A stretch of DNA of 64,000 bases from Cyanidioschyzon merolae (taxonomy: Eukaryota): NCBI GenBank assembly GCA_000091205.1, contig AP006492.2. One strand, written 5' to 3'. Positions 519-64,000 of this stretch are shown here, one piece after another. The translations under genes were made by a program, and so were the position numbers. Numbering within the stretch: the first letter of the stretch is position 1; every line of letters begins with the position of its first letter. The notes beneath the pieces are model-generated. The model was not told the DNA's origin. It ran no database searches and was given only the letters and a program-made list of their open reading frames with translations.

Positions 519-1193
519 TCACTTGCGCCACTCCGTGGACTCATCCTTCATTGCAATAGAGGGCGGTTTACCGCGACCCAGTTTCATTTTTAACCATTGG
601 ATAAGGCTCATAGCTTGTTCGGGTCGAATCATCTGCGTCGGATAGTCAAAATCTTTCGCAATAACGCGGTAGCCGTACTCCAGGTCATCAGCGGTATACT
701 TTCGCAACGCGGAGTACTTGCGCAGGGCGGCGTGGATCATGCGACGCCCCTGCTCACTGAAAACAGAGCGTGCCACTCCCTTGTTCAAAGTGTCGCCATA
801 GAATTTGCGTCCCCAGCTCGTGCGCATAGCGTTAACCAGCATCTTCGCGCGCCCGTCGCCTCTCATGGTGCCCAGTGGGTACCACAGCCCCGAGACGGGA
901 CTACGCGCGAGAATTGCAAACACCGGTGTACCGTCTTCAGGAACCTCTAGTTCGCTAGGCGGTGCCAGTGGAGCATTAGGTTTACCTTTCTTGGCTTGGA
1001 GGCCAATAACGCCTCGATGCGGCAGTGCGGTCGAGCGATGCACCCCAGCGGCGCTTGCCGGTGCGCTCTGTACGCGTGACCTTGGACAGAAAACACCGTG
1101 GGTATGAGCAGTTGTTAGAGATACCGCTTGTCCATTTCTGTTTAGACTTGGTTTCCAACGTGTACCACTGAAACCAGCGCCTTGGATGAACAT
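519..1193 (-). CDS. Hypothetical ORF; the C-terminal half (about 519-900) looks protein-like with weak GIY-YIG / T5orf172-like spacing (GLWYPLGT...R...E)
   Basis: 224-aa minus-strand ORF in the track. Only the C-terminal roughly 125 aa has non-repetitive, conserved-looking composition (WGRKFYGD..., HAALRKY..., EYGYRVIAKDF...). The domain assignment is a guess from motif spacing. Confidence 0.2.
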   Translation of the reverse strand: MFIQGAGFSGTRWKPSLNRNGQAVSLTTAHTHGVFCPRSRVQSAPASAAGVHRSTALPHRGVIGLQAKKGKPNAPLAPPSELEVPEDGTPVFAILARSPVSGLWYPLGTMRGDGRAKMLVNAMRTSWGRKFYGDTLNKGVARSVFSEQGRRMIHAALRKYSALRKYTADDLEYGYRVIAKDFDYPTQMIRPEQAMSLIQWLKMKLGRGKPPSIAMKDESTEWRK

Positions 1194-2120
1194 CTGTTAC
1201 CAGTTCACCTGTGCGGCACACGAAGAGTGATGGACAATGCCTGCAATGTTCGTTGTACGGAAGGCCATCGATGGGCAGCGAGTCGTGATCGCCGGCTCCG
1301 CTGCGTGCCCGCCGTGAGCACCCCCGCAGCAGCGCTCATGGTGCCGGTGCAGATGTATGCTTGAGTCAGAGCGACTTGGCCGTACCACTTTGGGCATCGG
1401 ATGGAGTAATACTACAGCTGGCATGGAATTAGGGCTAGGTATCATTCTGGGAACCTGAAATATAGGCAGATGGACGTACTGGCTACGGCCACGCGAAGCG
1501 ATATGCTTGGAGATAACTGCAATATGAGCAACGCCCAGTCGCAGCTTGAATGCCCCTAGTCCCAGAATAAGCTGCGTTGCGAACGAGTCGCGCAGGTCTC
1601 GCCGGAGCAACCGCCACTTTAGAGGCACACCGAGCGCAAACCTGGGAGACTCGTCCGGCTCGCGGGACCTGCCTCCTGTACGGTAAACTTTCGACAATAT
1701 GGAAACCTGTTCCCGCTCTAAAATTTTTTTTGTTGAGGGGAAAGAAATTATTTTCTAGTTGCTAGGTAGTGGTTGGTCTCTGTCCTTTATTACGATATGG
1801 CGCACTCGATACGCCCACCTCCATATTCGGCAGGAACGGAACACGTCGCGCATGTCGCCTTTGTGGGGAGACACGATCCTGGGCACTCGTTGACCTACTG
1901 CTCTAACGGGCAAGTTGTACTAACATGAAAGTCGCATCAAAGTATAGTCTTCCATTCCAGTTGTGTTTCAACCCTCAAGTAAGTGTATTCAAGTGATTTT
2001 TTGCAGTTTATAACGAAAGCGTTCACAGCGCGGTTTTCTCAAAAATAACAAAGTAGTGGAAGTGGAATTGGAGGATTCTCGAGGACCGATATCGCCGGCT
2101 GAAGGGAAAAACGAAAAGAA

Positions 2121-4378
2121 TTGCCGAGCAGAGAGGACCAGGAGAAGACAAAGAAGCTGAGACAGGAGGCCAGACGTCAAAGGCTGCACGAGAGACGACA
2201 GTGCGACGAAATGGTGGTGCAAGCTCTTCTTCTACGCCGTACCAAGCATCCCTGTGGGCAAACGTTGCGAGAGGCCATCAGAAACCGTGTCGAGTCGTAC
2301 TCCGTGAGTATTATAAAGGCCTCGTCAGGGCTAATGCATTTGGTGAAGGAGATGTACCATCACATTACGGATATCACAACAGTCGAGGTTCCGGAAGAAT
2401 TTTTCATCGGGACCTTTATTCGCCACCTGATGCCTGGCACAGGGAAAATGTCGACGAAATGCGAGGGAGTGCACGCCCTCCACGAAAAATTTCCCCTTTA
2501 GAGCTCCAATGGTGCTCGATACAGGGATGAAGGAGATATTTACACCTACAGGGCGATGAAGTACTTCACGAATCTGAAGGACCACGTGAAAATGAACCGC
2601 GAACGTTTCATGAAACGCTCCGTATTTGCGCTCTACCCGGGCATCTCTCGCAAGCGGATACGTGCGATTATCCATGGCATCATGAACAATCGCCAGCATG
2701 GACAGGAGATCGAATTCGTTGACGAGAAGACATCACTCTGGTAAACGAATCAGGCTTATGTCATTCGTGCGGTTATACAAGAGCACCGTGCAATCTTGGG
2801 GCTGGCGAACCCAACAGAAAAGGTATTAGATTTGAAAAAAGATAAGGAAAGATGCTATCGCCTCGTCCTACGCTATTTCGTGTTCCTGGACCGAGAACTG
2901 GAACGCAAGGCGGAGATGACGCTGAGTGAGGAAAACAATGATGAATGGCAGAGACGGAAGGCTGTCCTGATGGGTAAGCGCTTCAATGGCGTTCCGTTGT
3001 GCAGCATCAAGTCGCACTATGTGATTATCGACTCCAGAGTCCTCTACGGCGTCATGGAGGAGACCTGTCCGCAGTTCGATGGAAGGAAGACGGAGTTCAC
3101 CGGTGAAAGCCGGGAGACGTACTGGAAGAATATCTTCTATTTCAAACGTCGCAAAGTGAGCAAGCAGAGGGTATTCACGGGCATAATCGAAACCGATGGA
3201 GTGTCCATGTGTGTACACTGTCGGCGGTTGAAGGCGGATCGTCCTATCGTGCCTTCGGCTTCGCCCGTGACGAAGCATGAAGAAAAGAAAGAGGCGGATC
3301 CTGCGACGCAGGAGGTGCATGAGAGTGACTTTGTCGTCGGCGTGGACCCCGGAAACACGATGAATATAGCCGTTGCAGCACCCAAGCGTGCGGAAGATGG
3401 CAGTGACGGTGACTTACGTCAGAAAGACATGCGTCTTTTCAAGCTCTCGAGAGCAAGATACCATCGAGAATCGGGAATCATGAATGCGAGGAAGAAAATC
3501 GAGACGTGGAATGCAGGAATCAAGGATCACCTGGAAGTTATGGGCGAGGTGGCGAGCCGCGGAGCAGACTTTAAAGCTTTTCGGGAGTTCGTGAAAATTC
3601 GTGTTGCCCATTGGGGTGCGCTGTGGAAAGAGTACGCCAAGCCCCGGTGGGCTCGTCTGCGTATGAACCTGTACTGTGGAAAACAGCGTGCATTCGCGAA
3701 TTTTTTCAATCAGTTGAGAGCCTTGAAGGAGGCCGAGAGTCAGAGGCTCGTAGTGGCATACGGAGCAGGGCGCAGGAAGACCCATAAAGGAACTACGCCA
3801 GCTCCAAGGACGAGAGCGTACAAGGAATGTGCACCGCGTTTCGACACGATACCTGTAGATGAGTTCCGAACGTCGTATACACATCATGAACTGGGGGTGT
3901 ACGCTTCAGAGAGTTGGGATGGAAAAGCGCCAGCAGAGCTCCGAGGATATGGCAAAAGTACGGAGCCCTGACGGAAGAGCAAATGGAAAGGAGGGCGAAC
4001 GTTCGTGGACTACTTGCATCAGTGAGTACAACCAGTGATGGCAAGAAACGTATGGAGTTCGTGAATAGAGACTTTCATGCAGCTATCAAAATAAGAAGAC
4101 GTGCGATGATGGAGAAAAGACCTGCAGAGTGGACGCGAGAGAACTTTGTTGGGCAACGTCTCAAGGTGGAACTATATGAGAAAAACTTGAGACCAGTAGA
4201 AGGTGGCCGGTCCAAAAAGACGGGGAAGCGTCTGCACATCAGTTGGAGACGTTTCGTCTGGGGCAAGTTTCTCGCCACAACTGTGCACTGCCGGCGACTG
4301 CTTTCGACTTTTAAAAGGCGTTCGCTAGCGGTGTCTTTCCAGCCGTCGTCCGGTGTACTCGCGAAAGGACCAATGTGA
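2121..4378 (+). pseudogene. Fanzor1-like (TnpB/OMEGA-family RuvC nuclease) ORF, disrupted by in-frame TAG at 2499-2501, in-frame TAA at 2742-2744 and a frameshift near 3900-3975. Either a decayed transposon-borne gene or an unresolved multi-exon gene.
   Basis: Frame 0 is open from 2103 to 3971 apart from two single stop codons, and frame 2 continues from 3914 to 4378. Motifs seen: a K/R-rich N-terminal tract (EKTKKLRQEARRQRLHERRQ); RuvC-I '[17 protein letters not shown]'; the Fanzor1-type block 'VVAYGAGRRKTHKGTTPAPRTRAYKECAPRFDTIPVDEFRTSYTHHELG' with the relocated Glu in 'vdEfRTS'; and RuvC-III 'VNRDFHAAIKIRR' (matches D.NAA.NI). The zinc-finger cysteines after 'RTS' appear lost. Confidence 0.6.
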
Positions 4379-4980: not shown

Positions 4981-6870
4981 ATGCCAACCGTAACAGTTAT
5001 ACGCGATCGATTCTTGAAGGCACTGGACTCTGATCTCGATGAAGCGGCGCTAGAGCAACTCTGCTTCTCGTATGGTCTAGAAGTGGAAACCGTGGAGGAC
5101 GAGCCGCTGAGCGACCTGCTCGGCGGCCAGCGCGCTCGCTCTGGTTGGTCAGACTCCATCGACGACGTCGAAAACTACGCAGGCCCTCTAGACCAGCACG
5201 TCGCTTGTTTAAAAATCGAGGTACCGGCAAACCGTCCAGACTTGTTGTGCTTCGAAGGCTTAGTGCAGGCGCTTCGCGTCTTCCGCGGCCTTGATAAACC
5301 AGCTGCGTTTCTGCTGCAGCGAACGGAGCCGCGGGAGCGGATCCTTGTGAGAACGAATGCACTGCGCCCATACATTGTGGCTGCAGTGCTGCGCGGTATA
5401 GACCTATCGGATCCGCTGCGGTATCAGTCGCTGATGGATCTACAGGAGCACCTTCATCAAAACCTAGGTCGTCGCCGTGCGCTCGTCGCGATCGGTACGC
5501 ACGACCTCGATACTGTCAAGGGGCCCTGCACCTACACGGTGAAAGACCCCAGAGAGATTCGCTTTCGACCATTGGCCGCTGAGCGCGAGCTGAGCGGTCT
5601 CGAAATCATAGAGCACTACCGACTCGACAAGCATCTGAAACGCTACCTGCCGCTCGTGGAAGGTGCACAGGCGTACCCGCTCCTTCATGATAGCGAGGAT
5701 CAGGTGCTATCGCTCCCGCCTATCATCAATGGTGATCGAACCAAAATCCGTCCTAGCACGCGAAATATGTTGATCGAATGCACTGGAACGGACCTAGTGA
5801 AGCTCACCACCGCGCTGACCGTCATCGTGGCCTCCTTCTCCCGGTATTGTCTGCCGGCGTTTTATGTGGAGCCAGTGACGATTCACTACGATCAACCGCT
5901 ACCGGAGGATAGGCTTGCAGCGATCAAAGCCAACGTGCTCGATTCGCAAACGCTATGCACACCGTGGGTCGAGGACGCGCAAATGCAGGTTTCTGCGCGT
6001 TACGTACAATCGCTACTGGGGGTCTCGCTCTCGGTATCGGAGCTGGAACGTCACCTTCAGCGCATGCAGTTGCACCTAGTGTCTGTCGTGGAAAACGAGG
6101 CATTCGATCAGGTCCTCAACGTTCAGGTACCAGTCTTCAGGAGCGACATCCTCCATCCGTGTGACGTTGCGGAGGACGTAGGCGTCAGTTATGGTTTCGA
6201 TCATGTTCCCGAGCGCACTGCTCCCTGTGTGCCAGTCGGGCAGTGGCGACCCTTGGAGCGCTTAACAGATCATCTTCGTCGCGAGCTCGCGCAACAGGGA
6301 TACTTCGAGGTTTTAACCTGGGTAACCGTGTCGCACGCTGAAAATACCGAAATGCTGCAACGCAGCGATGCACAGTCGCCAGCTGTGCGTCTACATAATC
6401 CCAAAACTCTAGAATTCGAGGAATGCCGGACCAGTCTTCTCGTGGGGCTGTTGAAGACACTTCGCGAGCATCGGGAAGCGCCGCTTCCTCTGCGCCTTTT
6501 CGAGACCGGTGATGTCGTCCTGCTTGATTCCAAAAGCGAGACCGGAGCCCGAAATGAGCGTCATCTTGCGGCAGTTTATAGTGACGTCCGCGCAGGTTTC
6601 GAGATCGTGAAGCATCTTCTCGATCGGATCATACTTGCTTTGAATTTGAAGTCCTTGGGATACAATGCAGGTTACCGACTGGACCCAAAAGCTTGTCACG
6701 ATGACCTCTTCTTTCCAGGTCGACGAGCGACGATTCTTGTGGAGCGGCCCAACGGGGCTCGGTTCGCGCTCGGGAGTATGGGCTGGCTCCACCCGCAGGT
6801 ACTGAAGAACTTTGGTCTTGCGGCGCCAGCGTCAGCGTTCGAGTTGAACGTGCAACCTTTTGCTGCGTAG
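4981..6870 (+). CDS. FARSB: Phenylalanyl-tRNA synthetase beta subunit (cytoplasmic, eukaryotic type)
   Basis: Single 630-aa ORF. The N-terminus 'MPTVTVIRDRFLKAL...EQLCFSYGLE' matches eukaryotic PheRS-beta 'MPTVSVKRDLLFQALG...DELCFEFGLELDE'. The B3/4 and B5-like regions are continuous and the ORF ends at a TAG stop. Confidence 0.9.
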   Translation: MPTVTVIRDRFLKALDSDLDEAALEQLCFSYGLEVETVEDEPLSDLLGGQRARSGWSDSIDDVENYAGPLDQHVACLKIEVPANRPDLLCFEGLVQALRVFRGLDKPAAFLLQRTEPRERILVRTNALRPYIVAAVLRGIDLSDPLRYQSLMDLQEHLHQNLGRRRALVAIGTHDLDTVKGPCTYTVKDPREIRFRPLAAERELSGLEIIEHYRLDKHLKRYLPLVEGAQAYPLLHDSEDQVLSLPPIINGDRTKIRPSTRNMLIECTGTDLVKLTTALTVIVASFSRYCLPAFYVEPVTIHYDQPLPEDRLAAIKANVLDSQTLCTPWVEDAQMQVSARYVQSLLGVSLSVSELERHLQRMQLHLVSVVENEAFDQVLNVQVPVFRSDILHPCDVAEDVGVSYGFDHVPERTAPCVPVGQWRPLERLTDHLRRELAQQGYFEVLTWVTVSHAENTEMLQRSDAQSPAVRLHNPKTLEFEECRTSLLVGLLKTLREHREAPLPLRLFETGDVVLLDSKSETGARNERHLAAVYSDVRAGFEIVKHLLDRIILALNLKSLGYNAGYRLDPKACHDDLFFPGRRATILVERPNGARFALGSMGWLHPQVLKNFGLAAPASAFELNVQPFAA

Positions 6871-11275: not shown

Positions 11276-13285
11276 ATGTACGTTGTGTTGCCTGCACACT
11301 CCGGGACAAGACAGTTGCAGCGGGGTCTGCGGCCTGCCCTGCACCCAATAAGTGACGGTGTTGGCGTTCGAGCGACTCGCCAGCGAGCCTCAAGGCGACA
11401 CCGGACACCACTGGTCGCGGTTCAGTGGGAATGGTTCGGCTGGGATTTGGATGGGCGTTTTGAGCCAGATCTCACCGACATCACACCTAAACCGGAAAAA
11501 GTGCTCCCGAATACGGGAACGACGTATGCTGATTCGCTCGTTTTCCCGACAGACTCGAAACGCTGGCCTGATTCTCTACCGGGCACCGCGTTGCTCTGGT
11601 TCCGAAACGATCTCCGTTTGCACGATAACGAAGCGCTACGTCTTGCGAACCGCGCAGAGAGCCTGCTCTGTGTTTACGTGTTTGATGAGCGCTACTTCTT
11701 CGGAAAGTCCCGATTTGGAGGCTTCCTCCGCATTGGTGAGCATCGCGCATACTTCCTGCGGGAGTGCATCGTAGACCTGCGACAGGCACTCCGGAGTCGT
11801 GGTCAAGAGCTAATCGTTGAGATCGGCTCACCGGTGGATGTCATCCCCCGCTTAGTGCAAAAATTCGGGGTGCAGCATCTCATTTTCAGCAAGGAGGTCA
11901 CCGAGGAGGAGATCGCCACTGAAAATGCCCTCGTTAGGACGCTTGCACAAGTTGCCGCCCAGGGCCAGATCTCCGCGCCCGTCCAGTGCCATGCAGTATG
12001 GAACGCAACACTCGTGCATATTGAAGACCTACCGTACCCGTTCCCAGGCAAAGCAAAAGACATCAGCAGGCGTGCCGAGTCACCAGTTCCGAAAACTCGT
12101 GGTACACCAGCAGTGGATCGCGTTTTCCCGGATACATTCACGACGTTCCGTCGACTCGTAGAGCGAAGCTGGACCGTTCGCGAGACCTGGCAGTGTCCAG
12201 AGGTGCTTACACTGTTACCAGACGATGCCAGCAACTTCAATACCATAGACTGGTCTGGCGCCCTGCCCATAGAGTATCCCGCTGAGGCGACGCGTATCGG
12301 CGCTGAGCCGCCCAAGCTGCTGCTCATGCGACCCTATCCAGACCCGCGAGCCTGCTACGATTTTCACGGAGGCGAGACGGTTGCGCTTTCCCGCCTCGAG
12401 GATTGGATATGGGAGACGCAATCGCTCGCCAGCTATAAGGAAACGCGGAACGGCTTGGAGGGACCCGACTACTCCTCCAAGTTCAGTTGCTTCCTTGCCC
12501 ATGGCTGTATATCGCCGCGGTTGATCTACAATGCAGTGCGGGACTTTGAGCGCCGCGTGGAATCCAATGAATCCACGTATTGGCTGCTGTTCGAACTGCT
12601 CTGGCGAGACTTTTTCCGCTTTACTGCAGTGCATCATGGAAACGCAATTTTTAAGCGGCGGGGTCTGCGAGGCGTCCGCGGTGCCTCTAAAACTTCACAA
12701 AGCGGAGCGCGTTCCGCTGTTGTACGACAGCGCGAGGACGTCTCGCCAGATGCACGCTTGACGGCCTGGTGCCAGGGGCGTACGGGGGTTCCCTTCATTG
12801 ATGCCGCTATGCGAGAACTGCGGCTCACGGGCTTTATGTCCAATCGAGCGCGTCAGGTCGTCGCGTCATTCCTGATCAACGACCTGGGATTGGACTGGCG
12901 ACTTGGCGCCGAATGGTTCGAATCACAGCTCCTCGACTATGACCCATGTAGCAACTGGGGGAACTGGTGTTATCTTGCGGGAGTCGGAAACGATCCGCGC
13001 AGCGGTTCTCGCTATTTCCATCCGCTGAAGCAGGCGTATGAGTTCGATCCTCGGGCAACGTTCACAAAGCGCTGGTGCCCCGAGCTCTTCTGGGTGGATA
13101 ACGCTCTGATCCAAACGCCATGGAAATGGAATCGCAAAATGCAAGAGGCGTTTCGAGTGACCCTGGGCGACCAGTACCCGGAGCCAATTGTAACTTTGCG
13201 GGAGCCGGGGCGCGCCCGAACACCACCGAAGGTATCGCCATCGACGCCCGTGGACACTGACGCGGCGGTGCATCACGAGTCGTGA
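11276..13285 (+). CDS. Cryptochrome DASH / photolyase-family flavoprotein, with an N-terminal extension of about 90 aa before the photolyase domain
   Basis: 'ALLWFRNDLRLHDNEAL' photolyase N-terminal motif. 'YKETRNGLEGPDYSSKFSCFLAHGCISPR', 'STYWLLFELLWRDFFRF', 'TGVPFIDAAMRELRLTGFMSNRARQVVASFLINDLGLDWRLGAEWFESQLLDYDPCSNWGNWCYLAGVGNDPR' closely match plant CRY3 (CRY-DASH). The first in-frame ATG is at 11276 and the ORF opens at 11219. Confidence 0.85.
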   Translation: MYVVLPAHSGTRQLQRGLRPALHPISDGVGVRATRQRASRRHRTPLVAVQWEWFGWDLDGRFEPDLTDITPKPEKVLPNTGTTYADSLVFPTDSKRWPDSLPGTALLWFRNDLRLHDNEALRLANRAESLLCVYVFDERYFFGKSRFGGFLRIGEHRAYFLRECIVDLRQALRSRGQELIVEIGSPVDVIPRLVQKFGVQHLIFSKEVTEEEIATENALVRTLAQVAAQGQISAPVQCHAVWNATLVHIEDLPYPFPGKAKDISRRAESPVPKTRGTPAVDRVFPDTFTTFRRLVERSWTVRETWQCPEVLTLLPDDASNFNTIDWSGALPIEYPAEATRIGAEPPKLLLMRPYPDPRACYDFHGGETVALSRLEDWIWETQSLASYKETRNGLEGPDYSSKFSCFLAHGCISPRLIYNAVRDFERRVESNESTYWLLFELLWRDFFRFTAVHHGNAIFKRRGLRGVRGASKTSQSGARSAVVRQREDVSPDARLTAWCQGRTGVPFIDAAMRELRLTGFMSNRARQVVASFLINDLGLDWRLGAEWFESQLLDYDPCSNWGNWCYLAGVGNDPRSGSRYFHPLKQAYEFDPRATFTKRWCPELFWVDNALIQTPWKWNRKMQEAFRVTLGDQYPEPIVTLREPGRARTPPKVSPSTPVDTDAAVHHES

Positions 13286-14418: not shown

Positions 14419-15612
14419 CTACGTTGCGGGCAGCGCAAGGGTGCGCGATGCTGCGAGCCACGGCTCGAATGCAAACCCCAACATATCGAAAAGAGGAGGC
14501 AGCAACGCCAGACTGAAAAAGAAGAAGATGCTGTAAATCGCACCGCTCGCCGCAAAACGTGCTGCGGCACAATAAGACACCCTGCTCTTCGCCTCGTGCC
14601 GGGCGCGCTTCGCGCCCGGCACATCGGGTGCGTGGCGGTCATCCGCTGATGGGCTTCTCTTAGAGCGCCACCTTGAGCCCGGCTCGCTCGTCGAGCCTTT
14701 CGCTATCGACTCCGATTCCGTACATGGAGACGAAAACAGATACCCTTTCGCGTCCTCTTTCTCACTCGGTGGCGGTGTACCAACTTGTGACGCTCCCGTC
14801 CAGCCCAGTTGACCGTTCGAGATAGTCAAGAACGAGGCGAGTTCTCGCAGCACCGACTTGGTGACACAAGCGAAACCGACAATCATTCGCTGACCATTTG
14901 TCGGAGGTTTTCCGTTTGTCTCGCAGCTAGCTTGCGACGCGGCCTCATTCGGGTTGTCTGGCGAGCTCCTCGCTTCCACAGTGCGAGTGCTTTGCGCGCA
15001 CACGAGCGCTTCCAGTTCGCGAACGCGTTCCCTCAGCCGTTGATTCTCGACCGCGAGATCGCTGAGTGCCCGAGATAACAACAGGTAGTCTCCAATGCCC
15101 ATGTCGCGAGAACTCCACGCTGTGTCCTCTAAACAAAATGATGCAGCACGAGGCGACTGTGGCAGCGACTCCGCGGCGACAGTGCACCCACCAAAGTCGG
15201 TGGACGAGTCCGTCTCGAACCGCCCTGAAGTAGGTATGATACCCGAACGTACCTCCCATTCACCATTTTGTTCGTCTTGAGAACAAGATTCTAAGTTAAG
15301 AAAGTTGTCCCAGTTAGATAGGTTTGTTGAGGTCGTGTGTTCCACTGCCATGCAGTCCGTTTCGAGGCGAACGCAAAACACGAATCGGATACGGGATCGC
15401 GTATGCGTGTGCGCCTTCGAGAATCGCGGAGGCGCTTCCAACCGATCGGACACGTGTCCCGCGCGTTGATCCACAGGCATGCGTGCCTGGCGGATGAAAT
15501 CCCTGATTTTGTTGGATAGGGCCCAGACAATGTGCCTGGATTCTAGAGTGCGCGTTGCAACTGGGCACTCGGGAAAGCATCCATCATACTTCGTGATACG
15601 TCCAAGTTCCAA
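14419..15612 (-). CDS. Hypothetical protein with a Cys/His-containing N-terminal segment and a leucine-zipper-like coiled coil (LAVENQRLRERVRELEAL)
   Basis: 397-aa ORF with no confident domain match. The C-terminal part is low complexity. Confidence 0.3.
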   Translation of the reverse strand: MELGRITKYDGCFPECPVATRTLESRHIVWALSNKIRDFIRQARMPVDQRAGHVSDRLEAPPRFSKAHTHTRSRIRFVFCVRLETDCMAVEHTTSTNLSNWDNFLNLESCSQDEQNGEWEVRSGIIPTSGRFETDSSTDFGGCTVAAESLPQSPRAASFCLEDTAWSSRDMGIGDYLLLSRALSDLAVENQRLRERVRELEALVCAQSTRTVEARSSPDNPNEAASQASCETNGKPPTNGQRMIVGFACVTKSVLRELASFLTISNGQLGWTGASQVGTPPPSEKEDAKGYLFSSPCTESESIAKGSTSEPGSRWRSKRSPSADDRHAPDVPGAKRARHEAKSRVSYCAAARFAASGAIYSIFFFFSLALLPPLFDMLGFAFEPWLAASRTLALPAT

Positions 15613-16219
15613 GACCCATTCATTGTTTCGAATAGACTGGTCGTTCCATACGATCCATGATGCTCCGAGCCTGTCGTACGCATCCGCAAGAGCGTGAAGA
15701 GAGCCAGTGCGGACACCGGACGCGGGTAGACCACTTTTTTATCATTCCGCTGAGGGCGGCTGCTCGAGGCGTGGTCCACCTGACGCGGGATCCGGTTTCG
15801 TTGTCAGTGCACGCTCTGGCAGGCTGCATATGGGACCCTATTGAAGCGGCACGGCGCTTTGGAGAAATCTAACTGCTAGGAAGAATTCTGGCCATAGAGT
15901 CTCACATTCGCCATCGGATACGGATTGCGTTGCGGTATAGGAGCGCGGGTCTTGGCTCGGTACCCATCAGCGAGGAGGTAGATGAAACGCTGGGCCGGCA
16001 CGCCCATCCGTATTGCGCAGCCTTCAGCCAAGAGGCTAGAATGTGAGATTGGTCGGCGCTCGCGGGGTTGTGGCTCAGACAGAGGAACACCAGGTGCCAG
16101 AACTGCAATCAATGCGAATGATCGTCCTCGATCGCCTATAGTGACGTTTCGAAGATGTGCTCCCTCAGGGAGCCTGCAGTGATCCTCTAGCCAAAGCGGA
16201 CTCTGTAGAAACGACTTTG

Positions 16220-17830: not shown

Positions 17831-18489
17831 AAGCACGTCCGTTTTCTACAACCAACCGCCTTTCCATACCTCTATACGTATCTAAGGTGCCACACTAGAT
17901 TCAAAATATATCTCATAGACCTCTACACACTGCGATACGTTCAAGAGCTTAGGGTGCTCGTACAGGCGCATGCCTACGCATATATGTACGTATAGGCACT
18001 CTCGTTGCCAGTGACAAGTACGGACCAGTGGACGCGTTTTCTCGAGTTGAGGCCGACGCCTCCACTTTGCCGTCTGTTGTACACAACGTATGCAACGGAA
18101 CTTTGGTCGGGAAAACGTGGATCGCCGCCAGTTCTAGCCTATTAGAGACCTCGTGCCATCAGCACGATCCACGTAGGGTATGGATACCGACTCACAGACA
18201 CTTCGCTGGGTTGCCCGACTCGCCGACTGGTATCAGCTTCAGCTTCTCCTGGTACATCTCGACCTCGAGAGGTTCCCCCACAGAGTTCGCTCGCGTTAGC
18301 TCCGTGGGTCTCATCTTCAGGACTGCACATCTCCTCGTATTGATGGCGGCGTTAAAGTTCACGAACGCCATGCGTTTCTTGCCTCTGCGCGAACCCATCA
18401 ATGCAAGGATTCCTAGAATTCGCGCCCTTCGTACCACTACAGCCTCATCAACGCCCCGCCGTGCGAACACGCTCTCTCGCCTATCCCCC

Positions 18490-28382: not shown

Positions 28383-28952
28383 TCAGTAATAGGTAGCGTG
28401 TGCCTCCAATGCCGCCCGAAAATATCTATACCCGGATACGAGCGACAGAACCGCAGCAGCATGCAGAAAGCTCACACCGAGATACAGTACGGGTGGCGGA
28501 AGTCCGATGCTGGGTTGCGCCAGCAGCAGCAACATAATACTGCCCATCTGGAACACCGTTTTCAGTTTCCCGTGCTGATTCACGGCGACAACATCCCGTA
28601 GACCTCGAGAGGCCATCCACTCGCGTAACGCTGTGATCGCTATCTCTCGCACAAGAATAACGACGGCCGGCAGTGTGACCCAGAACCGCGCGTAACGCTC
28701 GACAAGTAAGATAAGCATCGTTGCGACGCTGAGTTTATCGGCAACAGGATCCAGGAACGCGCCCCATACGCTCGATACGTTAAGGCGACGAGCGATGTAC
28801 CCATCGAGCCAGTCTGTGAGGGAAACCATGCCGAAAAGCGTCGTGCACACAAGCGCAGCCCAGCGCTGAGAGATGTAGAAGAACACGACTATGGGCGGTA
28901 ACAAAATAAGGCGGGCAAGCGTCAGTGCATTGGGCAAGTTCCAAAAGCTCAT
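28383..28952 (-). CDS. CDP-alcohol phosphatidyltransferase (PgsA / phosphatidylglycerophosphate synthase or cardiolipin-synthase type)
   Basis: 'LARLILLPPIVVFFY...SLTDWLDGYIARRLNVSSVWGAFLDPVADKLSVATMLILL' is the D-G-x2-A-R-x8-G-x3-D-x3-D signature. The Met at 28952-28950 gives a 190-aa product. The ORF stays open upstream to 29672 through a repeat region. Confidence 0.75.
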   Translation of the reverse strand: MSFWNLPNALTLARLILLPPIVVFFYISQRWAALVCTTLFGMVSLTDWLDGYIARRLNVSSVWGAFLDPVADKLSVATMLILLVERYARFWVTLPAVVILVREIAITALREWMASRGLRDVVAVNQHGKLKTVFQMGSIMLLLLAQPSIGLPPPVLYLGVSFLHAAAVLSLVSGYRYFRAALEAHATYY

Positions 28953-29460
28953 ACTTTGGACAGGTACAGGTTTCGCCTCGTGAGCGTCTGGACCCAAATC
29001 CAAACGATAGCGCTTCTCGGATTCTAGTGGCTTTTTCCGTCGGATCTGTGAGGGCACATCCTCTATGCAGCCGCGAAGGAGCGTCGGTCGTTTAGCGTGG
29101 ACGCACAAACCGCACCTCCGGAGTGAAGCAAACGCACCGTGCCTCTGTGGGGCGCGCTCCGGCGCCAACCTACCGACAGGTGCCACAAATGCCACCAGTT
29201 GCGACAAGTGGGCACCGTACAGGATGCTGCACGGCGTACACCAGAAACCCATGATGCCTATTGATGACTGGAATTCGTAACTGATTTCATGAGTAAAGCC
29301 ACACCCGCGGCACAGCACAGCAGAGCACAGTGCCGCCTTGCAGGGCAATCGCGAACGACGCTCTTCCCACGGGATGCAGTGATCCGGTAGATGCGCCTGC
29401 CGCACTGCGGCTGGACATCGACGGCGTCGGAGGCGGCATTCCTGCAGCAGTTCCTTATCC

Positions 29461-29680
29461 TGTACAAACCTGCATGAAATAGACTCCTGGGATTCGATGC
29501 GCTCCTCAATATTCAGTACAAACCTGCATGAAATAGACTCCTGGGATTCGATGCGCTCCTCAATATTCTGTACAATCCTGCATGAAATAGACTCCTGGGA
29601 TTCGATGCGCTCCTCAATATTCTGTACAATCCTGCATGAAATAGACTCCTGGGATTCGATGCTCTGACGCATGACGCAAT
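29461..29680. repeat. Minisatellite, 54-bp unit in 4 copies (encodes the 18-aa unit IESQESISCR[I/F]VQNIEER on the minus strand)
   Basis: 'cctgcatgaaatagactcctgggattcgatgcgctcctcaatattc' recurs at 29469, 29523, 29577 and 29631. Confidence 0.9.
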
Positions 29681-46722: not shown

Positions 46723-49700
46723 GAATTGCATTGAACCTTCGGCATGTGCTCATGAACAAGTCCTCAAACGCTGACATCGAGCGCCTTTTCTCTTCAATCC
46801 AGCGGCGCAAATTGATGCACGACGACTTTGCTTCAAAGAGAAAGATCAATACTTGAAGAAAGCTAGCGTCGAAGATGCCGCGTGCAAAGAACGGCGATAC
46901 ATGGAGTCACACACGTGTGGATTCTATGATGATATTCGTTATTTTACGAGCCCTTGTTCGAAGTTGCTGCGAACCACCTTGATTCCCACGAAATGACGAA
47001 TTTCAGCGGGAAAGCGCGGATGGAGCAAATCGGGAACAACCTGCAGCTGTCCTACAACTGCGTATGAATCCCGAAGCCTCCATTGCTGCTCTTTGAATAT
47101 CCATACTTTCGGTTTGAAACACAAATTCTGTAAAGGTTCGAAACCTGGGAACAGAACTACGAGTTCAACGTTCCGTTTTGATCTGCTATCGTGTAGGGGT
47201 GAACACCAGTGCCCCGGAGCGTCGTCCTGCCAATCATCGGGGGCAGTTGCTGCTGATCAGCGGCCAATCTTTATCCTTCCACTGGCACGATCACGACATA
47301 CACCATGAGGTTTAGGACCTGGAGGCCGACGGCTTTATTCCAAATGAGCCCATTCGTTGGCACTTGATCTATGATGTCTTGCACATCCAAGGCCCGTGAC
47401 TGATCTCCGATGCGTTGATTTCAATGGCCTCTGCAACCGGCAAGTATTAGCCAAGGTGGCTCGCTGTACTCGGCGCGATGAAGCCTAGAACGTCTGCACT
47501 AGCATGCCATTTTGTCTTCCCTTGTGTTATCTGCAGGGATTCAACAAATGGAATGTCTCCTGGATTGTGGAGAATGGTCACGGGAAGGCTTTATTCCTCC
47601 GGAATTTTTCGACCGAAACCTTCATGCACCAACACAACTGATACTCGGGACATACGACGCAATACGGCCTAATTGCAGGATCAGAGACTCGCAAAACATT
47701 TATGCCAGAATACCTGGGCGTATCGGCATGCCACCTCGGTACCCCGAACATCCACAACGCCGGTACCAGAACGGATGAAACCTACATCAGGAAACAACAC
47801 GGTACGATGGTCCATATCCAGCGCATCATGAAGCAAACTCTACGACCTTTATAACCTCACCCGAATGGTACGGAAAAGTAAATACTGATATAAAGAATTC
47901 TTGAGATATGGACGAAGGCAAATGACGAGCTGACGCGGAACCATACGAGATGGTATCGAGATCGAAGGAGAAGTCGTAACGAGCGCGAGAGACGCTTAAG
48001 ATCGACCAAGCGCATGGTGTTGTGGTCTCGTTCTCGGACACACGTGGCTAACACTCCAAGGAGCGCTGCAACGTGATACCGGCCTGTTTTGGATGACGTG
48101 CTTCTGCGTTTCTCTTGACAGAAATCTTGAGAGCACAGCACAATTCCTCCATAGATTCGAGAGCAGTGGTCGCTTTCGACGTCCTTTAAGTATGACCCGC
48201 ATTCTTCAAGTCTAATTATTTCCCAGTTAACACATGTGTACTGCAGTCTGTCGCATCGTTCGTGAGCTACGTCTGGTCTCTTTGAGCAAGTACGAAGCAT
48301 CCAAAGTCACTTGCGAAAAGCGTTGACGGGACTCGTTCATCGTTCCTCAGCCACAGGGATGAAATGAGAAGAAGCTGATCGGATGATGGAGACTGACGGC
48401 ATATCAATCTGCATGCACTATGTGCAACATAAACCCGGGTCGTGGACCGAGACTCCTTTTCAAAGTTTCAAGACAGACGAAGACGAAGACGCCGCGCTGA
48501 GCGTGTGGATCGCCCGATGAAGCACACGGCAGCCGTCGCAGTACGTTTCAATCCACAGGACAGATCCAACGATCTGAACGAAAAGCAGATGAAGCTGCAT
48601 ACGTTCTTCAGGGCTCCGTGCGAGCGCGAGTCGAGCACCTTGATCGCCAGCGCGCATGCGAACGACTGAAACAGCGGCATCGCGACCAATCTCGACGCTC
48701 TGAATACCGCATCGAGCAGCTAATCACGCTTTGATCGCTTCACGCTGACACTTCGTGTACGTCCAAATGGCTCATGTGGACGTCCTTCGGCAGGCCGACA
48801 CGGAACCGCGTCCGAGTCGCCGACGTTTTCGGCTTTATGGAGACCGGCAACGGACTTTCGCCAACCCGGTCCATGAGTTGGAAAAAGCAAATCACCGAAA
48901 AGCCGTATGCACTGGTGGTAGCCTACGGCAATGCGCGTTCTGTGACGCCTGAAGACAGCGCTCGTTTTCGCTCGACGAGCGCGTGCAACCAGTGCAGACA
49001 TTGATGCCGCACGATTCCCATCAACGAATTCCGGGCTTCGACGTACGCACACCATGAGCACGGGTGCACGCTAGATCTGCCTGAGACACAGAGCATGGAA
49101 CAGAGCCGAATACAATGGATGCTGTATTGTGAACTGAACAAGCGTCAAATGGCGCAGTACCTGGAAAAGGAGACGCATCCTACGATGTGATTCCGCGAAG
49201 AGATGATGCGCGCAACCACGAGATGCACCGAAAGCTGAACGCCTCAATCAAGATCCGGAAGCATCTCGTGGTTTCGGAGGATTCAGCGGTATTCTGTGGA
49301 GCGACACTTGTGAGCGCATCGTTTTGTATACAGTATATGCATTGTGTTGGCACGTCGAAGACTTGCAGGGAGAAAAATCAGCCGTCATCCGGGCTGGCAT
49401 TGGACGCTTGCCTGGAGCAGCGCGCATCTATAATGGGGTCCAGCAAGCAGGCAAGCATGAATCGCCATATATACATTGGGAATGGTCTCCCTGCGTCATT
49501 GGTGAACGATAAGACTTCTCCACTACTCCATTCTACTGAATATACCAAACACACACTGAAAGACATTCATGAAGCAGGCGATCTAGTGCCTCGTAGCGCT
49601 GTCCTCGTGGCCGTGGCGCGTGTTGTGGCGCCTGGAGACCTGCCAACGAGCAGCGATCGTGCATCCCATACCAGTACGTAATACGCATTCAGTTCGTTAC

Positions 49701-62528: not shown

Positions 62529-64000
62529 CCAAAATCGGCCGATGCACGTCTGCCGTCAGCGGTGCATCCAGACAGCTGTGCAGTGCATCGAGTGTTGTCG
62601 TACGCATTGCCCGTCCGTCTCCCTATTATCGGCAGGTGCAGGGGCATGAGATACCGAGGTAAATACTGAACGAGTGTTCCGGATAGATGAACCTCAGGTC
62701 ATATGAGCGAACTGTATAAGGATACCGCCAGACTCGCCGGACGTGCAGACCCAGCAGGGGCAAGCGCCTCACCATGATTCCTCTCGTTGCACGTCGTCAG
62801 TCGCGTTCGGTCTCTGTGCGGCGAGCGCACCAGTGTTCTAGGCGTCGTCACGGGTACGGACAGCAGGCTCGGCACCTCGAGGATCGTGTGAACGAATCCG
62901 TTTCTTCGAAGGGCAGTATGGATGGTAGAGGCCGCTGGAGCTTGGCGGTATCGTGCAGAACGATAGATGCCTCCCGTAGATGCAGATCACTAGTGCACAG
63001 TTGGGGATCTCTGCTCAGTGTAAACGCTTCGTAGATACGAGAAGAGTAAAAGCTATATGAATGACTGTAGCCTTGTCAATCCATTCCAATGCATACATTC
63101 ATCACGAGATACTACCAAAGACGCCACAAACTGTGAATTCTGCGTACGCTTGATACATATGCCCATGCAGAGACATGCATGGACCATGACACAGGCATGC
63201 TTCAGTGCGAGACGCTCTCGCGCTGATCATCACGCACATGCTTTCGCACTGGAATGAGAATGCTTACCAAAGGAGCGACGGGTTCTCCTCTCGCTCAATG
63301 AGAATTTATTCGGAGGGCATGGTGAATCTGTGTAAGTGTACTCGAAGAATGACAAAACGCTTTTCGTAAGCAAGAAACAAGCGCGAATGACCATGTCATT
63401 TTCCTGATGCTAATGGATACTTGTGCTCGCCTACAGATCCCAAAACGGACAGGGTCGAAAAACACTTCATCCGGCGTCGGAGCACCCGTCATGGATTCCA
63501 GTTCCTACCTGGCTATGTCCTCTTTTTAGACTACGTCGCTTTCCATCACTTAATGGCTGTTAAAGAATACGCAGAGAAGATCGCCATTGAGCCGCTCTTC
63601 GTGCCACCAGGTTCTCTCCTGTTCAATCGAATCGTTGTTGTCTTTTCTGTTGCCTAATGCAGTTTTTACGCTCGCAAATTCATACGTATGTCGTTCGCGT
63701 CCGTTGAACCATTCTTCGATGAGTCGCCCTCTACCCTAGCCTTCACACCTCGTCCCGCAAATGTTCATATGAGTTCTCCAGATACAGGGCTACGAGCTAT
63801 CCGCGATTCTCTGTAATCCGTCGAGCAAACATTCGTTCGACGATACACATGATGCTCGCGACAGAGGACGCAACACTCCCTGGCCGTAGGATCAGAGATT
63901 CGAACACGTGCTTTCCAGAAAGTGTTGACGCGATGCCGCATCGCGTAGGCAGTTGAAAGAATGCTCGAGTCCAGGTTCTAGACAATATGAAACACACCTC

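What the first reader, a model, noticed from the sequence alone, without database searches (positions are those of the whole stretch)
2103..4378. Fanzor1-like (TnpB/OMEGA-family) RuvC nuclease ORF in a eukaryotic nuclear locus
The roughly 750-codon frame carries three hallmarks.
- RuvC-I: '[14 protein letters not shown]'.
- Fanzor1-specific block: 'AYGAGRRKTHKGTTPAPRTRAYKECAPRFDTIPVDEFRTS'. The canonical RuvC-II Glu is absent and a Glu sits in 'vdEfRTS', the rearranged catalytic arrangement reported for Fanzor1.
- RuvC-III: 'NRDFHAAIKI' (D.NAA.NI).

The N-terminus is K/R-rich and NLS-like. Fanzors are eukaryotic RNA-guided DNA endonucleases derived from TnpB, so this is the one plausibly programmable-nuclease locus in the window. 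The zinc-finger cysteines that normally follow 'RTSK.C..C' are missing (TSYTHHELG). That points either to a degenerate copy or to a variant worth comparing with characterised Fanzors.
Basis: partly seen in the sequence, partly recalled or inferred. Interest (0 to 1): 0.75.

Follow-up and report, generated by a model that had tools for sequence, protein, structure and literature searches.

The report
Dead Fanzor1 transposon copy, red alga

Summary
The window is Cyanidioschyzon merolae 10D chromosome 10. Positions ~1305-4322 (+) hold one 5'-truncated copy of a ~3 kb repeat. Its only gene, at 2056-4261, is a Fanzor1 pseudogene.

A profile of the protein clade matches solved Fanzor1 structures (E 2.6e-22, 5e-14, 1e-7). 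An AlphaFold model of a near-intact paralogue matches SpuFz1 (TM 0.70-0.72). DPG, the alternative RuvC-II Glu, the RuvC-III Asp and the WED TDG motif are all there.

The window copy is dead:
- start ATG changed to GTG
- a 1-bp deletion
- two in-frame stops
- two 1-bp insertions
- native stop TAG changed to TGG
- two RuvC-III Asn residues replaced

Strain contigs show the same gene spacing, and at least one shares a truncated ORF.

The missing zinc-finger cysteines are not decay. 90 of 91 clade representatives lack a C4 site.

Bao and Jurka (2013) already described this family as CMe-1A: about 150 copies, about 3 kb, no TIRs. The finding is correct, but known and low in interest.

A conserved 3' tail folds into hairpins and may be a relic of the guide RNA. 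That is inferred, not shown.

The parts
1305..4322 (+). One copy of the CMe-1A-type Fanzor1 repeat element. It lacks about 167 nt at its 5' end relative to long-form copies. It lies between an HHL1-like gene (519-1193, minus strand) and PheRS-beta (4981-6870, plus strand).
   Evidence: Coverage by 81 related loci falls to zero left of ~1305 and right of ~4322-4334. The 3' boundary is sharp after ...AAAGGCGTT. The 5' consensus aligns from its position 168 to window 1305. The 5' terminal motif is absent from the window. No terminal inverted repeats were found.
1305..2055 (+). 5' non-coding module. Its first part resembles the TE-N2_CMe-like module shared by long-form copies.
   Evidence: 77% identical to the long-form 5' consensus. 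The consensus has no ORF, and conservation shows no codon periodicity. Bao and Jurka report that the 5' 635 bp of CMe-1A equals TE-N2_CMe.
2056..4261 (+). Fanzor1 pseudogene: the region homologous to the family ORF, from the start-codon position to the stop-codon position.
   Evidence: tblastn and alignment to P0001-P0030 give 54-76% identity. hhalign against the clade profile gives E 5e-113.
2056..2058 (+). GTG where the family consensus has the ATG start. A second, upstream ATG used by some copies corresponds to GCG at 2028-2030.
   Evidence: Alignments.
2101..2102 (+). Site of a 1-bp deletion (frameshift) relative to other copies.
   Evidence: DNA alignment with L014, L032 and L034 and with the consensus.
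2499..2501 (+). In-frame TAG. Paralogues have Tyr here.
2742..2744 (+). In-frame TAA.
3192..3200 (+). TDG motif of the Fanzor1 WED domain (IETDGV).
   Evidence: D is invariant and T/G nearly invariant in A3. The motif is described as characteristic of Fanzor1 by Yoon 2023.
3270..3338 (+). A single unit of the variable-number acidic/basic tandem repeat ([23 protein letters not shown]) that precedes RuvC-I.
   Evidence: Copies carry 1 to ~5 units. L001 has 4 units of 75 nt. AF2 predicts this stretch as disordered.
3345..3353 (+). RuvC-I DPG motif, containing the catalytic Asp.
   Evidence: The Asp is invariant in A3. It aligns to DPG of PaFz1 and DPN of SpuFz1.
3762..3770 (+). Canonical RuvC-II position occupied by Gly (AYGAG).
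   Evidence: An invariant Gly in A3. Gly/Pro substitution at this site is reported for Fanzors.
3861..3863 (+). Alternative RuvC-II glutamate (vdEfRTS).
   Evidence: The Glu is invariant in A3. It aligns to IDEFRTS of PaFz1 and LDEYKTS of SpuFz1.
3893..3897 (+). G run with one extra G: a +1 frameshift.
   Evidence: DNA alignment with 9 paralogues.
3950..3956 (+). Second 1-bp insertion (frameshift).
   Evidence: DNA alignment with 9 paralogues.
4067..4093 (+). RuvC-III motif RDFHAAIKI. The Asp is kept, but the two conserved Asn residues are replaced by His and Lys in this copy.
   Evidence: The family has RDFNAAINI. R, D, N, A and N are invariant in A3.
4259..4261 (+). TGG where other copies have the TAG stop.
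   Evidence: Alignments.
4262..4322 (+). Conserved 3' non-coding tail. In the family consensus it forms hairpins, including an 11-12 bp hairpin at the very end. The terminal hairpin is degraded in this copy. It is a candidate relic of the omega-RNA scaffold and/or a transposition signal.

Best explanation
Positions ~1305-4322 are an old, fixed and decayed copy of the CMe-1A transposable-element family of Cyanidioschyzon merolae. The element's single gene encoded a Fanzor1 protein. Fanzor1 is the eukaryotic descendant of the bacterial TnpB RNA-guided DNA endonuclease.

By homology, an intact family member would work as follows. The protein has REC and WED lobes plus a single RuvC nuclease domain. 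Its active site is Asp (DPG), the relocated Glu (DEFRT) and Asp (RD.NAA.NI). It would bind a guide RNA (omega/fRNA) transcribed from the 3' end of its own element. It would cut DNA that matches the guide next to a short adjacent motif, which favours persistence of the element.

Shown here:
- family membership
- the motifs
- the fold of a near-intact paralogue
- the multi-copy element with a fixed 3' end
- the lesions in the window copy

Inferred only:
- RNA guidance
- the identity of the guide RNA
- how the element moved

The window copy cannot make the protein. It has no ATG, three frameshifts, two premature stops and a lost stop codon.
For: **Organism and locus**
Eight window ORFs are identical to C. 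merolae 10D chromosome 10 proteins.

**Homology**
- 30 close relatives at 54-76% identity.
- 1516 cluster representatives in an exhaustive HMM search.
- The clade profile hits only Fanzor1 among 177,635 PDB sequences: PaFz1 2.6e-22, SpuFz1 5e-14, GtFz1 1e-7.
- The window translation against the profile gives E 5e-113.

**Fold**
- The AF2 model of P0001 has pLDDT 78.5 and pTM 0.76.
- The top Foldseek hits are seven Fanzor1 chains, with E 6e-16 to 5e-12. TMt is 0.70-0.72 for SpuFz1 and 0.48-0.56 for PpFz and GtFz.
- Far weaker hits follow: Cas12i (E 4e-3), then Fanzor2, Cas12f and TnpB (E 3e-2 to 4e-2).

**Motifs**
Invariant D (DPG), G (AYG), E (DEFRT) and RD.N.A.N.

**Repeat element**
- 199 related stretches in metagenomes, of which 81 were fetched.
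- The repeat unit is bounded at ~1305 and 4322.

**Decay**
- Lesions were mapped against paralogues.
- Non-orthologous copies are at most ~90% identical, with a median of 82.6%.
- Strain contigs keep the same spacing between the flanking genes. L085 carries the same 391-aa ORF, bounded by the TAA and the first frameshift.

**Past selection on the protein**
Codon positions 1 and 2 are more conserved than position 3 in the RuvC part: 0.92-0.97 against 0.80-0.88.

**Literature**
CMe-1A was described with the same properties.
Against: - Direct Pfam and NCBIfam scans of the window translation found nothing. Relatives give only sub-threshold hits to the Cas12f1-like TNB domain.
- The C4 zinc ribbon is absent. 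Bao and Jurka list it as part of the strictly conserved motif.
- No transcript, guide RNA or activity data exist for this family. Covariation support for the 3' structure is weak.
- Among the fetched loci, no copy runs intact from the consensus ATG to the consensus stop.
Confidence: 0.93

Rival explanations
1. The locus is a live gene. On this reading, the apparent stops and frameshifts lie in introns or are bypassed, and an active Fanzor1 nuclease is made.
For: A 391-aa ORF (2796-3971) survives and contains RuvC-I and the alternative Glu. Fanzor genes in other algae have introns.
Against: - The frameshifts are single-base indels relative to nine paralogues. The stops replace sense codons inside well-aligned coding sequence, so there is nothing to splice out.
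- The start and stop codons are also lost.
- The RuvC-III Asn residues are mutated.
- From general knowledge, not tested here: C. merolae has very few introns.
Confidence: 0.02
2. The relic has been exapted. It lies between two divergently transcribed genes, is fixed in all sampled strains, and now serves as promoter or regulatory DNA, or as a source of a small RNA.
For: - It sits between the HHL1-like gene (minus strand) and PheRS-beta (plus strand).
- It is present in all six strain contigs that were fetched.
- The 61-nt 3' tail is 100% identical in five of the six.
Against: - The pseudogene body diverges faster than the flanking genes: 98.2-98.4% against 99.4-100%. That fits neutral decay.
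- 61 nt is too short for its identity to mean much.
- Rfam found no hit.
Confidence: 0.04
3. It is not Fanzor or TnpB at all. It would instead be another transposase or nuclease family with chance motif matches.
For: No curated Pfam or NCBIfam model matches. The zinc finger is missing.
Against: Profile E-values of 1e-7 to 2.6e-22 go exclusively to Fanzor1 chains. Fold matches have E of about 1e-15. All catalytic and WED signature residues are invariant across the clade.
Confidence: 0.01

Closest known systems
CMe-1A Fanzor1 element of Cyanidioschyzon merolae (Bao and Jurka 2013, Mobile DNA 4:12; PMC3627910)
   Same: Same genome. About 3 kb with a single Fanzor1 ORF. Many diverged copies, about 80% identical to consensus; here the median pairwise identity is 82.6%. 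No TIRs. The 5' ~635 bp is shared with a short non-autonomous element. The window copy is almost certainly one of their ~150 copies.
   Different: Nothing essential differs. Added here:
- the exact lesions of this copy
- the sharp 3' end with a terminal hairpin
- several alternative 5' modules
- the clade-wide lack of the C4 zinc ribbon
Structurally solved Fanzor1 nucleases: SpuFz1 (8GKH, 9CEU-9CEZ), Parasitella PaFz1 (9CF0-3), Guillardia GtFz1 (9CER-T)
   Same: - Overall fold: TMt 0.70-0.72 to SpuFz1.
- DPG RuvC-I motif.
- Gly at the canonical RuvC-II site plus the alternative Glu in (D/E)E(F/Y)(R/K)TS.
- RuvC-III NRD.
- WED TDG motif.

   Different: - The solved proteins carry CxxC directly after E(F/Y)(R/K)TSS and a second Cys pair before NRD. 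The CMe-1A clade has neither.
- Sequence identity is only 12-14%.
- The window copy is a pseudogene.
Chlamydomonas reinhardtii CRe-1/2/3 Fanzor1 elements in non-autonomous Helitron2 transposons (Bao and Jurka 2013)
   Same: - An algal Fanzor1-only non-autonomous element.
- Frequent 5' truncation or variable 5' ends with a constant 3' end.
- A 3' terminal hairpin.
- A T-run next to the 5' end.
- ~650-bp non-autonomous partners.

Green-algal proteins (Tetrabaena, Haematococcus) fall in the same protein clade.
   Different: - No asymmetric terminal inverted repeat was found.
- No RepHel partner was identified.
- TSDs are undetermined.
- The CRe genes have 5-10 exons, whereas the CMe-1A ORF is continuous.
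Bacterial TnpB (e.g. ISDra2; 8H1J)
   Same: RuvC fold and D-E-D chemistry. The guide RNA is encoded at the 3' end of the element. The bacterial system is the model for the inferred function.
   Different: - The canonical RuvC-II Glu and the C4 zinc ribbon are present in TnpB.
- TnpB is about 400 aa, against about 700 aa here.
- TnpB is associated with TnpA.
- The fold match is only weak (E 4e-2).

Membership tests
Fanzor1 | RuvC-I Asp within a DPG motif | tested here: met
   Window 3345-3353 encodes DPG. The Asp is invariant in 38 diverse clade members. The motif is described as defining by Yoon 2023.
Fanzor1 | Canonical RuvC-II Glu replaced by Gly/Pro, with an alternative conserved Glu downstream (E-alt) | tested here: met
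   AYGAG with an invariant Gly. Glu at 3861-3863 in VDEFRTS is invariant and aligns to the DEFRTS and DEYKTS of solved Fanzor1. Literature.
Fanzor1 | RuvC-III RD.NAA.NI with the catalytic Asp | tested here: met
   The Asp at 4070-4072 is present. In this copy the two Asn residues are replaced by His and Lys, which is decay. The family has RDFNAAINI.
Fanzor1 | C4 zinc ribbon (OrfB_Zn_ribbon / TNB) between the [TS][TS] motif and RD. Bao and Jurka call this motif strictly conserved. | tested here: not met
   - The window and its close relatives have TSYTHHELGC...C, with no CxxC pairs.
- 90 of 91 clade representatives lack any C4 arrangement; the median is 1 Cys in the segment.
- Only sub-threshold PF07282 hits were found.
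- All other evidence still places the clade inside Fanzor1, and the family (CMe-1A) is listed as Fanzor1 by the authors of that motif.
Fanzor1 | WED-domain TDG motif | tested here: met
   IETDGV at 3186-3203. D is invariant and T/G nearly invariant. Yoon 2023.
Fanzor1 | Significant sequence-profile similarity to experimentally characterised Fanzor1 | tested here: met
   PaFz1 2.6e-22, SpuFz1 5e-14, GtFz1 1e-7, and no other family. The window is linked to the profile at E 5e-113.
Fanzor1 | Fanzor1 fold (REC/WED/RuvC architecture) | tested here: met
   - The model is of paralogue P0001, not of the window pseudogene. It has pLDDT 78.5.
- The seven best PDB matches are Fanzor1, with E 6e-16 to 5e-12 and TMt up to 0.72.
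- Fanzor2 and TnpB reach only E of about 3e-2 to 4e-2.
Fanzor1 | Guide (omega/fRNA) encoded at the 3' end of the element, overlapping the ORF end | tested here: inconclusive
   - A conserved non-coding tail follows the stop codon (61 nt in the window copy, 4262-4322; somewhat longer in the family consensus).
- The consensus of the last 97 nt folds into three hairpins, with z -2.9 and 0 of 200 shuffles as stable.
- 84% of cells are paired, against 38-57% in slid controls. Covariation is weak, at 31/500.
- RNAalifold finds only 8 pairs, and Rfam finds nothing.
- There are no RNA data.
Fanzor1 | RNA-guided, TAM-dependent double-strand DNA cleavage | not testable with these tools
   This needs biochemistry on an intact or consensus protein.
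Fanzor1 | N-terminal nuclear localisation signal | not tested
   The consensus N-terminus MEKQVDDPGGPVSPAARKKRKTVPSPEEQEKTKKQR has a basic cluster. The window has REKRKE...KTKK...RRQR. This is compatible only. No predictor or experiment was run.
Fanzor1 | Carried by a eukaryotic mobile element in multiple copies | tested here: met
   199 related stretches in metagenome contigs. The repeat unit is sharply bounded at its 3' end. Three relics lie in this window alone.
CMe-1A (Repbase family of C. merolae) | C. merolae; about 3 kb; Fanzor1 ORF only; no TIRs; 5' ~635 bp shared with TE-N2_CMe; copies about 80% identical to consensus | tested here: met
   - Organism.
- 3.0 kb here, plus ~167 nt missing.
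- No other gene in the repeat.
- No TIR.
- A separate 5' module that also occurs alone.
- Median pairwise identity 82.6%.
- The Repbase consensus itself was not available for a direct alignment.
Prokaryotic TnpB (IS200/IS605, IS607) | Canonical RuvC-II Glu; C4 zinc ribbon; about 400 aa; TnpA partner or IS ends | tested here: not met
   Gly at the canonical Glu position. No C4 site. About 700 aa. No TnpA in the repeat unit. The fold match to TnpB is weak.
Helitron2 non-autonomous element | 3' terminal hairpin; 5' hairpin plus asymmetric terminal inverted repeats; insertion after a T-run; RepHel-encoding autonomous partner | tested here: inconclusive
   - The 3' hairpin is present.
- A T-run lies 0-6 nt upstream of the 5' end in 7-8 of 10 long-form copies.
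- The 5' ends are variable or truncated.
- No ATIR was recognised by eye, and no RepHel was searched for.
- Bao and Jurka left the class unknown.

The most novel reading that the evidence does not exclude
CMe-1A belongs to a large, mainly algal Fanzor1 subclade with at least 1,500 cluster representatives. It includes Tetrabaena and Haematococcus proteins. This subclade has lost the C4 zinc ribbon that is otherwise treated as a strictly conserved part of TnpB, Fanzor and Cas12f nucleases. It rides on elements with a fixed hairpin-bearing 3' end and interchangeable 5' ends, which may point to rolling-circle, Helitron2-like one-ended mobilisation.

If intact members are still active RNA-guided nucleases, they would be zinc-independent. 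Those from Cyanidiales would also be adapted to about 45 C and an acid-spring host, which would interest enzyme engineers. The window copy itself would still be dead.
Probability: 0.15. Interest if true: 0.55.

Novelty: already known. Interest (0 to 1): 0.25.

Why it matters
Fanzors are the only known eukaryotic RNA-guided DNA endonucleases and are being developed as compact genome editors.

This locus confirms that a sequence-only reader can spot such genes from motifs alone. However, the family in this very genome was published in 2013, and this copy is a mutated relic. It therefore opens no new question by itself.

Three side observations could be useful to Fanzor specialists if followed up on intact copies:
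- the whole clade lacks the zinc ribbon
- the element keeps a constant hairpin-ended 3' terminus while its 5' end varies
- the ORF was under protein-level selection while the family spread

Tried and rejected
- **Direct family scans.** Pfam and NCBIfam scans of the repaired translation found no hits. Pfam on close and distant relatives gave only sub-threshold PF07282 hits.
- **Narrow profile.** A profile of close relatives only (A1) against the PDB found nothing meaningful. The broader A3 profile was needed.
- **First AF2 run.** With the shallow alignment it failed, at pLDDT 34.
- **Second word-indexed homologue search.** Using A3 as the query, it was saturated by CMe-like proteins and added almost no diversity.
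- **Empty-site approach to TSD and target.** The flanking-gene look-up returned six strain contigs. The two that span the site have the same gene spacing, and the other four begin inside the element. Non-orthologous copies are all at most ~90% identical, so polymorphic young insertions are unlikely. The approach was abandoned.
- **5' terminal motif.** A search for it in the window found no matches, so the copy is 5'-truncated.
- **RNA structure.** RNAalifold on the 3' 230 nt predicted only 8 pairs. Manually proposed hairpins are compatible, but covariation is weak. Conservation of third codon positions and of the tail is not elevated near the 3' end.
- **Rfam.** The scan of the window gave 0 hits.
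- **Intron explanation for the stops and frameshifts.** Rejected after DNA alignment with paralogues.
- **TIR search.** None at the element ends.
- **Literature.** One search with poorly chosen terms was uninformative. In the papers read, I found no statement that a Fanzor1 clade lacks the zinc finger.
Full report
**Where the window comes from**

Eight long ORFs of the window are identical in sequence to annotated proteins of Cyanidioschyzon merolae strain 10D. All lie on an 839,707-bp record, chromosome 10. PheRS-beta (BAM80257) is at 4981-6870 and cryptochrome DASH (BAM80259) is at 11276-13285. The locus is therefore nuclear and belongs to a thermo-acidophilic unicellular red alga. Composition dips from about 55% to about 51% G+C at 2001-4000, and similar dips occur at 16-20 kb and 46-50 kb.

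**Checking the observation**

- VGVDPGNT, with the Asp codon at 3345-3347.
- AYGAG...VDEFRTS, with the Glu codon at 3861-3863.
- NRDFHAAIKI, with the Asp codon at 4070-4072.

The frame is interrupted by TAG at 2499-2501 and TAA at 2742-2744.

Comparison with paralogues refines the picture:
- The homologous reading frame starts upstream, at 2056-2058. Here it reads GTG, where the family consensus has ATG followed by MEKQVDDPGGPVSPAARKKRK.
- An extra G in the run 3893-3897 and an extra base within 3950-3956 are two separate +1 frameshifts.
- The family's stop codon (TAG) corresponds to TGG at 4259-4261.
- In RuvC-III, the family's RDFNAAINI reads RDFHAAIKI here.

**Is it TnpB/Fanzor?**

Curated libraries do not recognise the translation directly. 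A database search found 30 relatives with 54-76% identity. All came from JGI metagenomes and are pre-labelled at most as DUF8286. An exhaustive HMM search with their alignment found 1516 cluster representatives (E <= 1e-3), typically 600-700 aa.

I aligned 38 diverse full-length members (A3). The invariant columns are the Asp of DPG, the Gly of AYG, the Glu of DEFRT, and R, D, N, A, N of RD.NAA.NI. The WED-domain TDG motif is also conserved.

- **Sequence profile.** Searched against all PDB sequences, the A3 profile hits Fanzor1 and nothing else of significance: Parasitella PaFz1 at 2.6e-22, Spizellomyces SpuFz1 at 5e-14 and Guillardia GtFz1 at 1e-7. DPG, DEFRTS and NRD align to the corresponding motifs of the solved enzymes.
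- **Link to the window.** The window's repaired translation matches the same profile with E 5e-113 over 600 columns.
- **Fold.** An AlphaFold model of the near-intact paralogue P0001 failed with a shallow alignment (pLDDT 34). With A3 it reached pLDDT 78.5 and pTM 0.76. Its seven best PDB matches are all Fanzor1 chains, with E 6e-16 to 5e-12 and TM up to 0.72 normalised to SpuFz1. Far weaker hits follow: Cas12i (E 4e-3), then Fanzor2, Cas12f and TnpB (E 3e-2 to 4e-2).
- **Literature.** The published descriptions fit. Fanzors replace the canonical RuvC-II Glu by Gly/Pro and use an alternative Glu about 45 residues downstream (Jiang et al. 2023). DPG, E-alt and the WED TDG motif are Fanzor signatures (Yoon et al. 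2023).

**The zinc-finger question**

They are missing in all close relatives (TSYTHHELGCTLQRVEMEKCQ...) and across the wider clade. In the A3 alignment, the segment between E-alt and RuvC-III has no conserved Cys pairs. Of 91 top representatives that contain both motifs, 90 have no C4 arrangement, and the median is one Cys.

The solved Fanzor1 proteins do carry CxxC right after E(F/Y)(R/K)TSS. Bao and Jurka list a C4 zinc finger as part of the strictly conserved motif. So this defining feature is tested and not met, and the failure is clade-wide.

Two named members of the clade are green-algal proteins: Tetrabaena socialis PNH08370 and Haematococcus lacustris KAJ9522957. In the papers I read, I found no statement about a zinc-less Fanzor1 clade. 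I cannot say that it is unreported.

**The element around the gene**

I fetched 81 related loci from hot-spring metagenomes.
- **Size and content.** The repeated unit is compact, at ~2.6-3.3 kb, and contains no other gene.
- **3' boundary.** In window coordinates, similarity stops sharply at 4322, after ...GACTTTCGAA(A/C)GGCG(T/G)T.
- **5' boundary.** On the left, similarity reaches 1305. The window copy lacks the first ~167 nt of the long-form 5' end (...TTTTT-CGACAAAACGTTTaCATTGACCATGG...).
- **5' region.** The ~1 kb 5' region has no ORF and no codon periodicity.
- **No TIRs.** No terminal inverted repeats were found.
- **Variable 5' modules.** At least three or four unrelated 5' modules precede a common core that begins near window ~1800. 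The 3' end is constant and the 5' end is variable.

This matches the published family. Bao and Jurka (2013) describe CMe-1A in C. merolae as follows: about 150 copies, about 80% identical to consensus, about 3 kb, no TIRs, TSDs undetermined, class unknown. They also report that its 5' 635 bp is 95% identical to the ~70-copy element TE-N2_CMe. The finding is thus a copy of an already described family in the very genome where it was described.

**Age and state**

- Non-orthologous copies are at most ~90% identical, with a median of 82.6%.
- In the fetched loci, no copy runs from the consensus ATG to the consensus stop. The best (P0001, 752 aa) lacks the N-terminal Met and ends ~35 codons early.
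- Across 33 non-redundant copies, codon positions 1 and 2 are more conserved than position 3 in the RuvC part: 0.92-0.97 against 0.80-0.88. This shows protein-level selection while the family was spreading. It agrees with Bao and Jurka's remark on long-lasting coding capacity.
- The window insertion is old and fixed. In the two strain contigs that span the site (L082, L085), the HHL1-like gene and PheRS-beta are separated by the same ~3.79 kb. The other four contigs begin inside the element.
- One strain contig carries the same 391-aa ORF, bounded by the TAA and the first frameshift, so at least those lesions are shared.
- The pseudogene diverges faster than its flanks: 98.2-98.4% against 99.4-100%.

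**How it most likely worked**

By homology with characterised Fanzor1 and TnpB, the intact protein would bind an RNA transcribed from the 3' end of its own element. It would cut DNA complementary to the ~20 nt that follow the element's end, next to a short adjacent motif, using the single RuvC site (D of DPG, E of DEFRT, D of RD). This part is inferred.

What I could test is the 3' end.
- After the stop codon there is a conserved non-coding tail (61 nt in the window copy, somewhat longer in the family consensus).
- The consensus of the last 97 nt folds into three hairpins, with delta-G -42.3 kcal/mol, z -2.9 and none of 200 shuffles as stable. One is an 11-12 bp hairpin that ends 1-2 nt from the terminus.
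- On 36 copies, 84% of cells are paired, against 38-57% when partners are slid. Covariation is weak, however: 8 pairs with double changes against 5.3 +/- 1.5, or 31/500.
- RNAalifold alone predicts only 8 pairs, and Rfam has no match.
- In the window copy the terminal hairpin is degraded (z -0.4).

The hairpin could equally be a DNA signal for the unknown mobilising enzyme. Several features recall the Helitron2 features that Bao and Jurka describe for the Chlamydomonas Fanzor1 elements:
- a constant hairpin-bearing 3' end
- variable or truncated 5' ends
- a T-run next to the 5' end in 7-8 of 10 long copies
- ~650-bp non-autonomous partners

I did not recognise an asymmetric terminal inverted repeat, and I did not look for a RepHel gene. 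This remains a lead only.

**Rivals**

- **A live, spliced gene.** Excluded, because the lesions are single-base indels and sense-to-stop changes inside well-aligned coding sequence.
- **Exaptation as regulatory DNA.** Cannot be excluded, but nothing supports it beyond fixation and position.
- **A non-Fanzor identity.** Refuted.

**Verdict**

The element is already known as CMe-1A, and this copy is dead. Interest is low. The clade-wide loss of the zinc ribbon and the 3'-anchored element architecture are the only points that might repay further work, and only on intact copies elsewhere.

Noticed in passing
window 48200-49312 (+): A second, much more diverged Fanzor1-like relic. It covers the WED-RuvC region at 22-40% amino-acid identity to clade members. 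It is broken over frames 2>1>2>3>2 and sits in another low-G+C dip.
   Followed up: partly
window 18216-18446 (-): A short C-terminal fragment (RuvC-III region and tail) of a CMe-1A-like copy. It is 51-55% identical at the amino-acid level and 72% identical in DNA to window 4040-4170.
   Followed up: partly
window 15537-15806 (+) and 62804-62875 (-): Fragments similar to the 5' non-coding (TE-N2_CMe-like) module of the long-form element. They occur without any Fanzor coding sequence.
   Followed up: no
window 3270-3338; L001:11146-11449: A 23-25-aa acidic/basic unit ([23 protein letters not shown]) directly upstream of RuvC-I varies from 1 to about 5 tandem copies between element copies. It is predicted to be disordered.
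   Followed up: partly
L036:4735, L037:10665, L049:433 versus L079:6285 (window equivalent ~2400-2440): The 5' terminus of long-form copies (TTTTT-CGACAAAACGTTTA) matches, over about 19 nt, an internal coding stretch of the Fanzor ORF (GAGTTTTT-CGACAAGACGTTTA, which encodes EFFDKTFI). This may be coincidence or a recognition motif. It is unexplained.
   Followed up: no
L083:239-2413 versus window 2092-4261: In one strain contig the orthologous insertion is only 86% identical over 2.2 kb. Its 3' tail (100%), the downstream spacer (98.9%) and PheRS (99.6%) are nearly identical. This suggests either gene conversion between paralogous copies or a chimeric metagenome assembly.
   Followed up: no
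3' flanks of 35 distinct copies (L001-L081): The first ~9 nt after the element's 3' end are A-poor and G/T-rich (for example TGGTG, TGTTG, GGTGG). Either the element extends a few weakly conserved bases further, or it prefers GT-rich targets.
   Followed up: partly
loci L001-L081: At least three or four unrelated 5' modules precede a common core that starts near window ~1800. The element family has a fixed 3' end and interchangeable 5' ends.
   Followed up: partly
window 28383-29672 (-): The N-terminus of this 429-aa ORF begins with tandem repeats of ESQESISCRIVQNIEERI ahead of a transmembrane, CDP-alcohol-phosphatidyltransferase-like C-terminal half. I only saw this in the translation.
   Followed up: no
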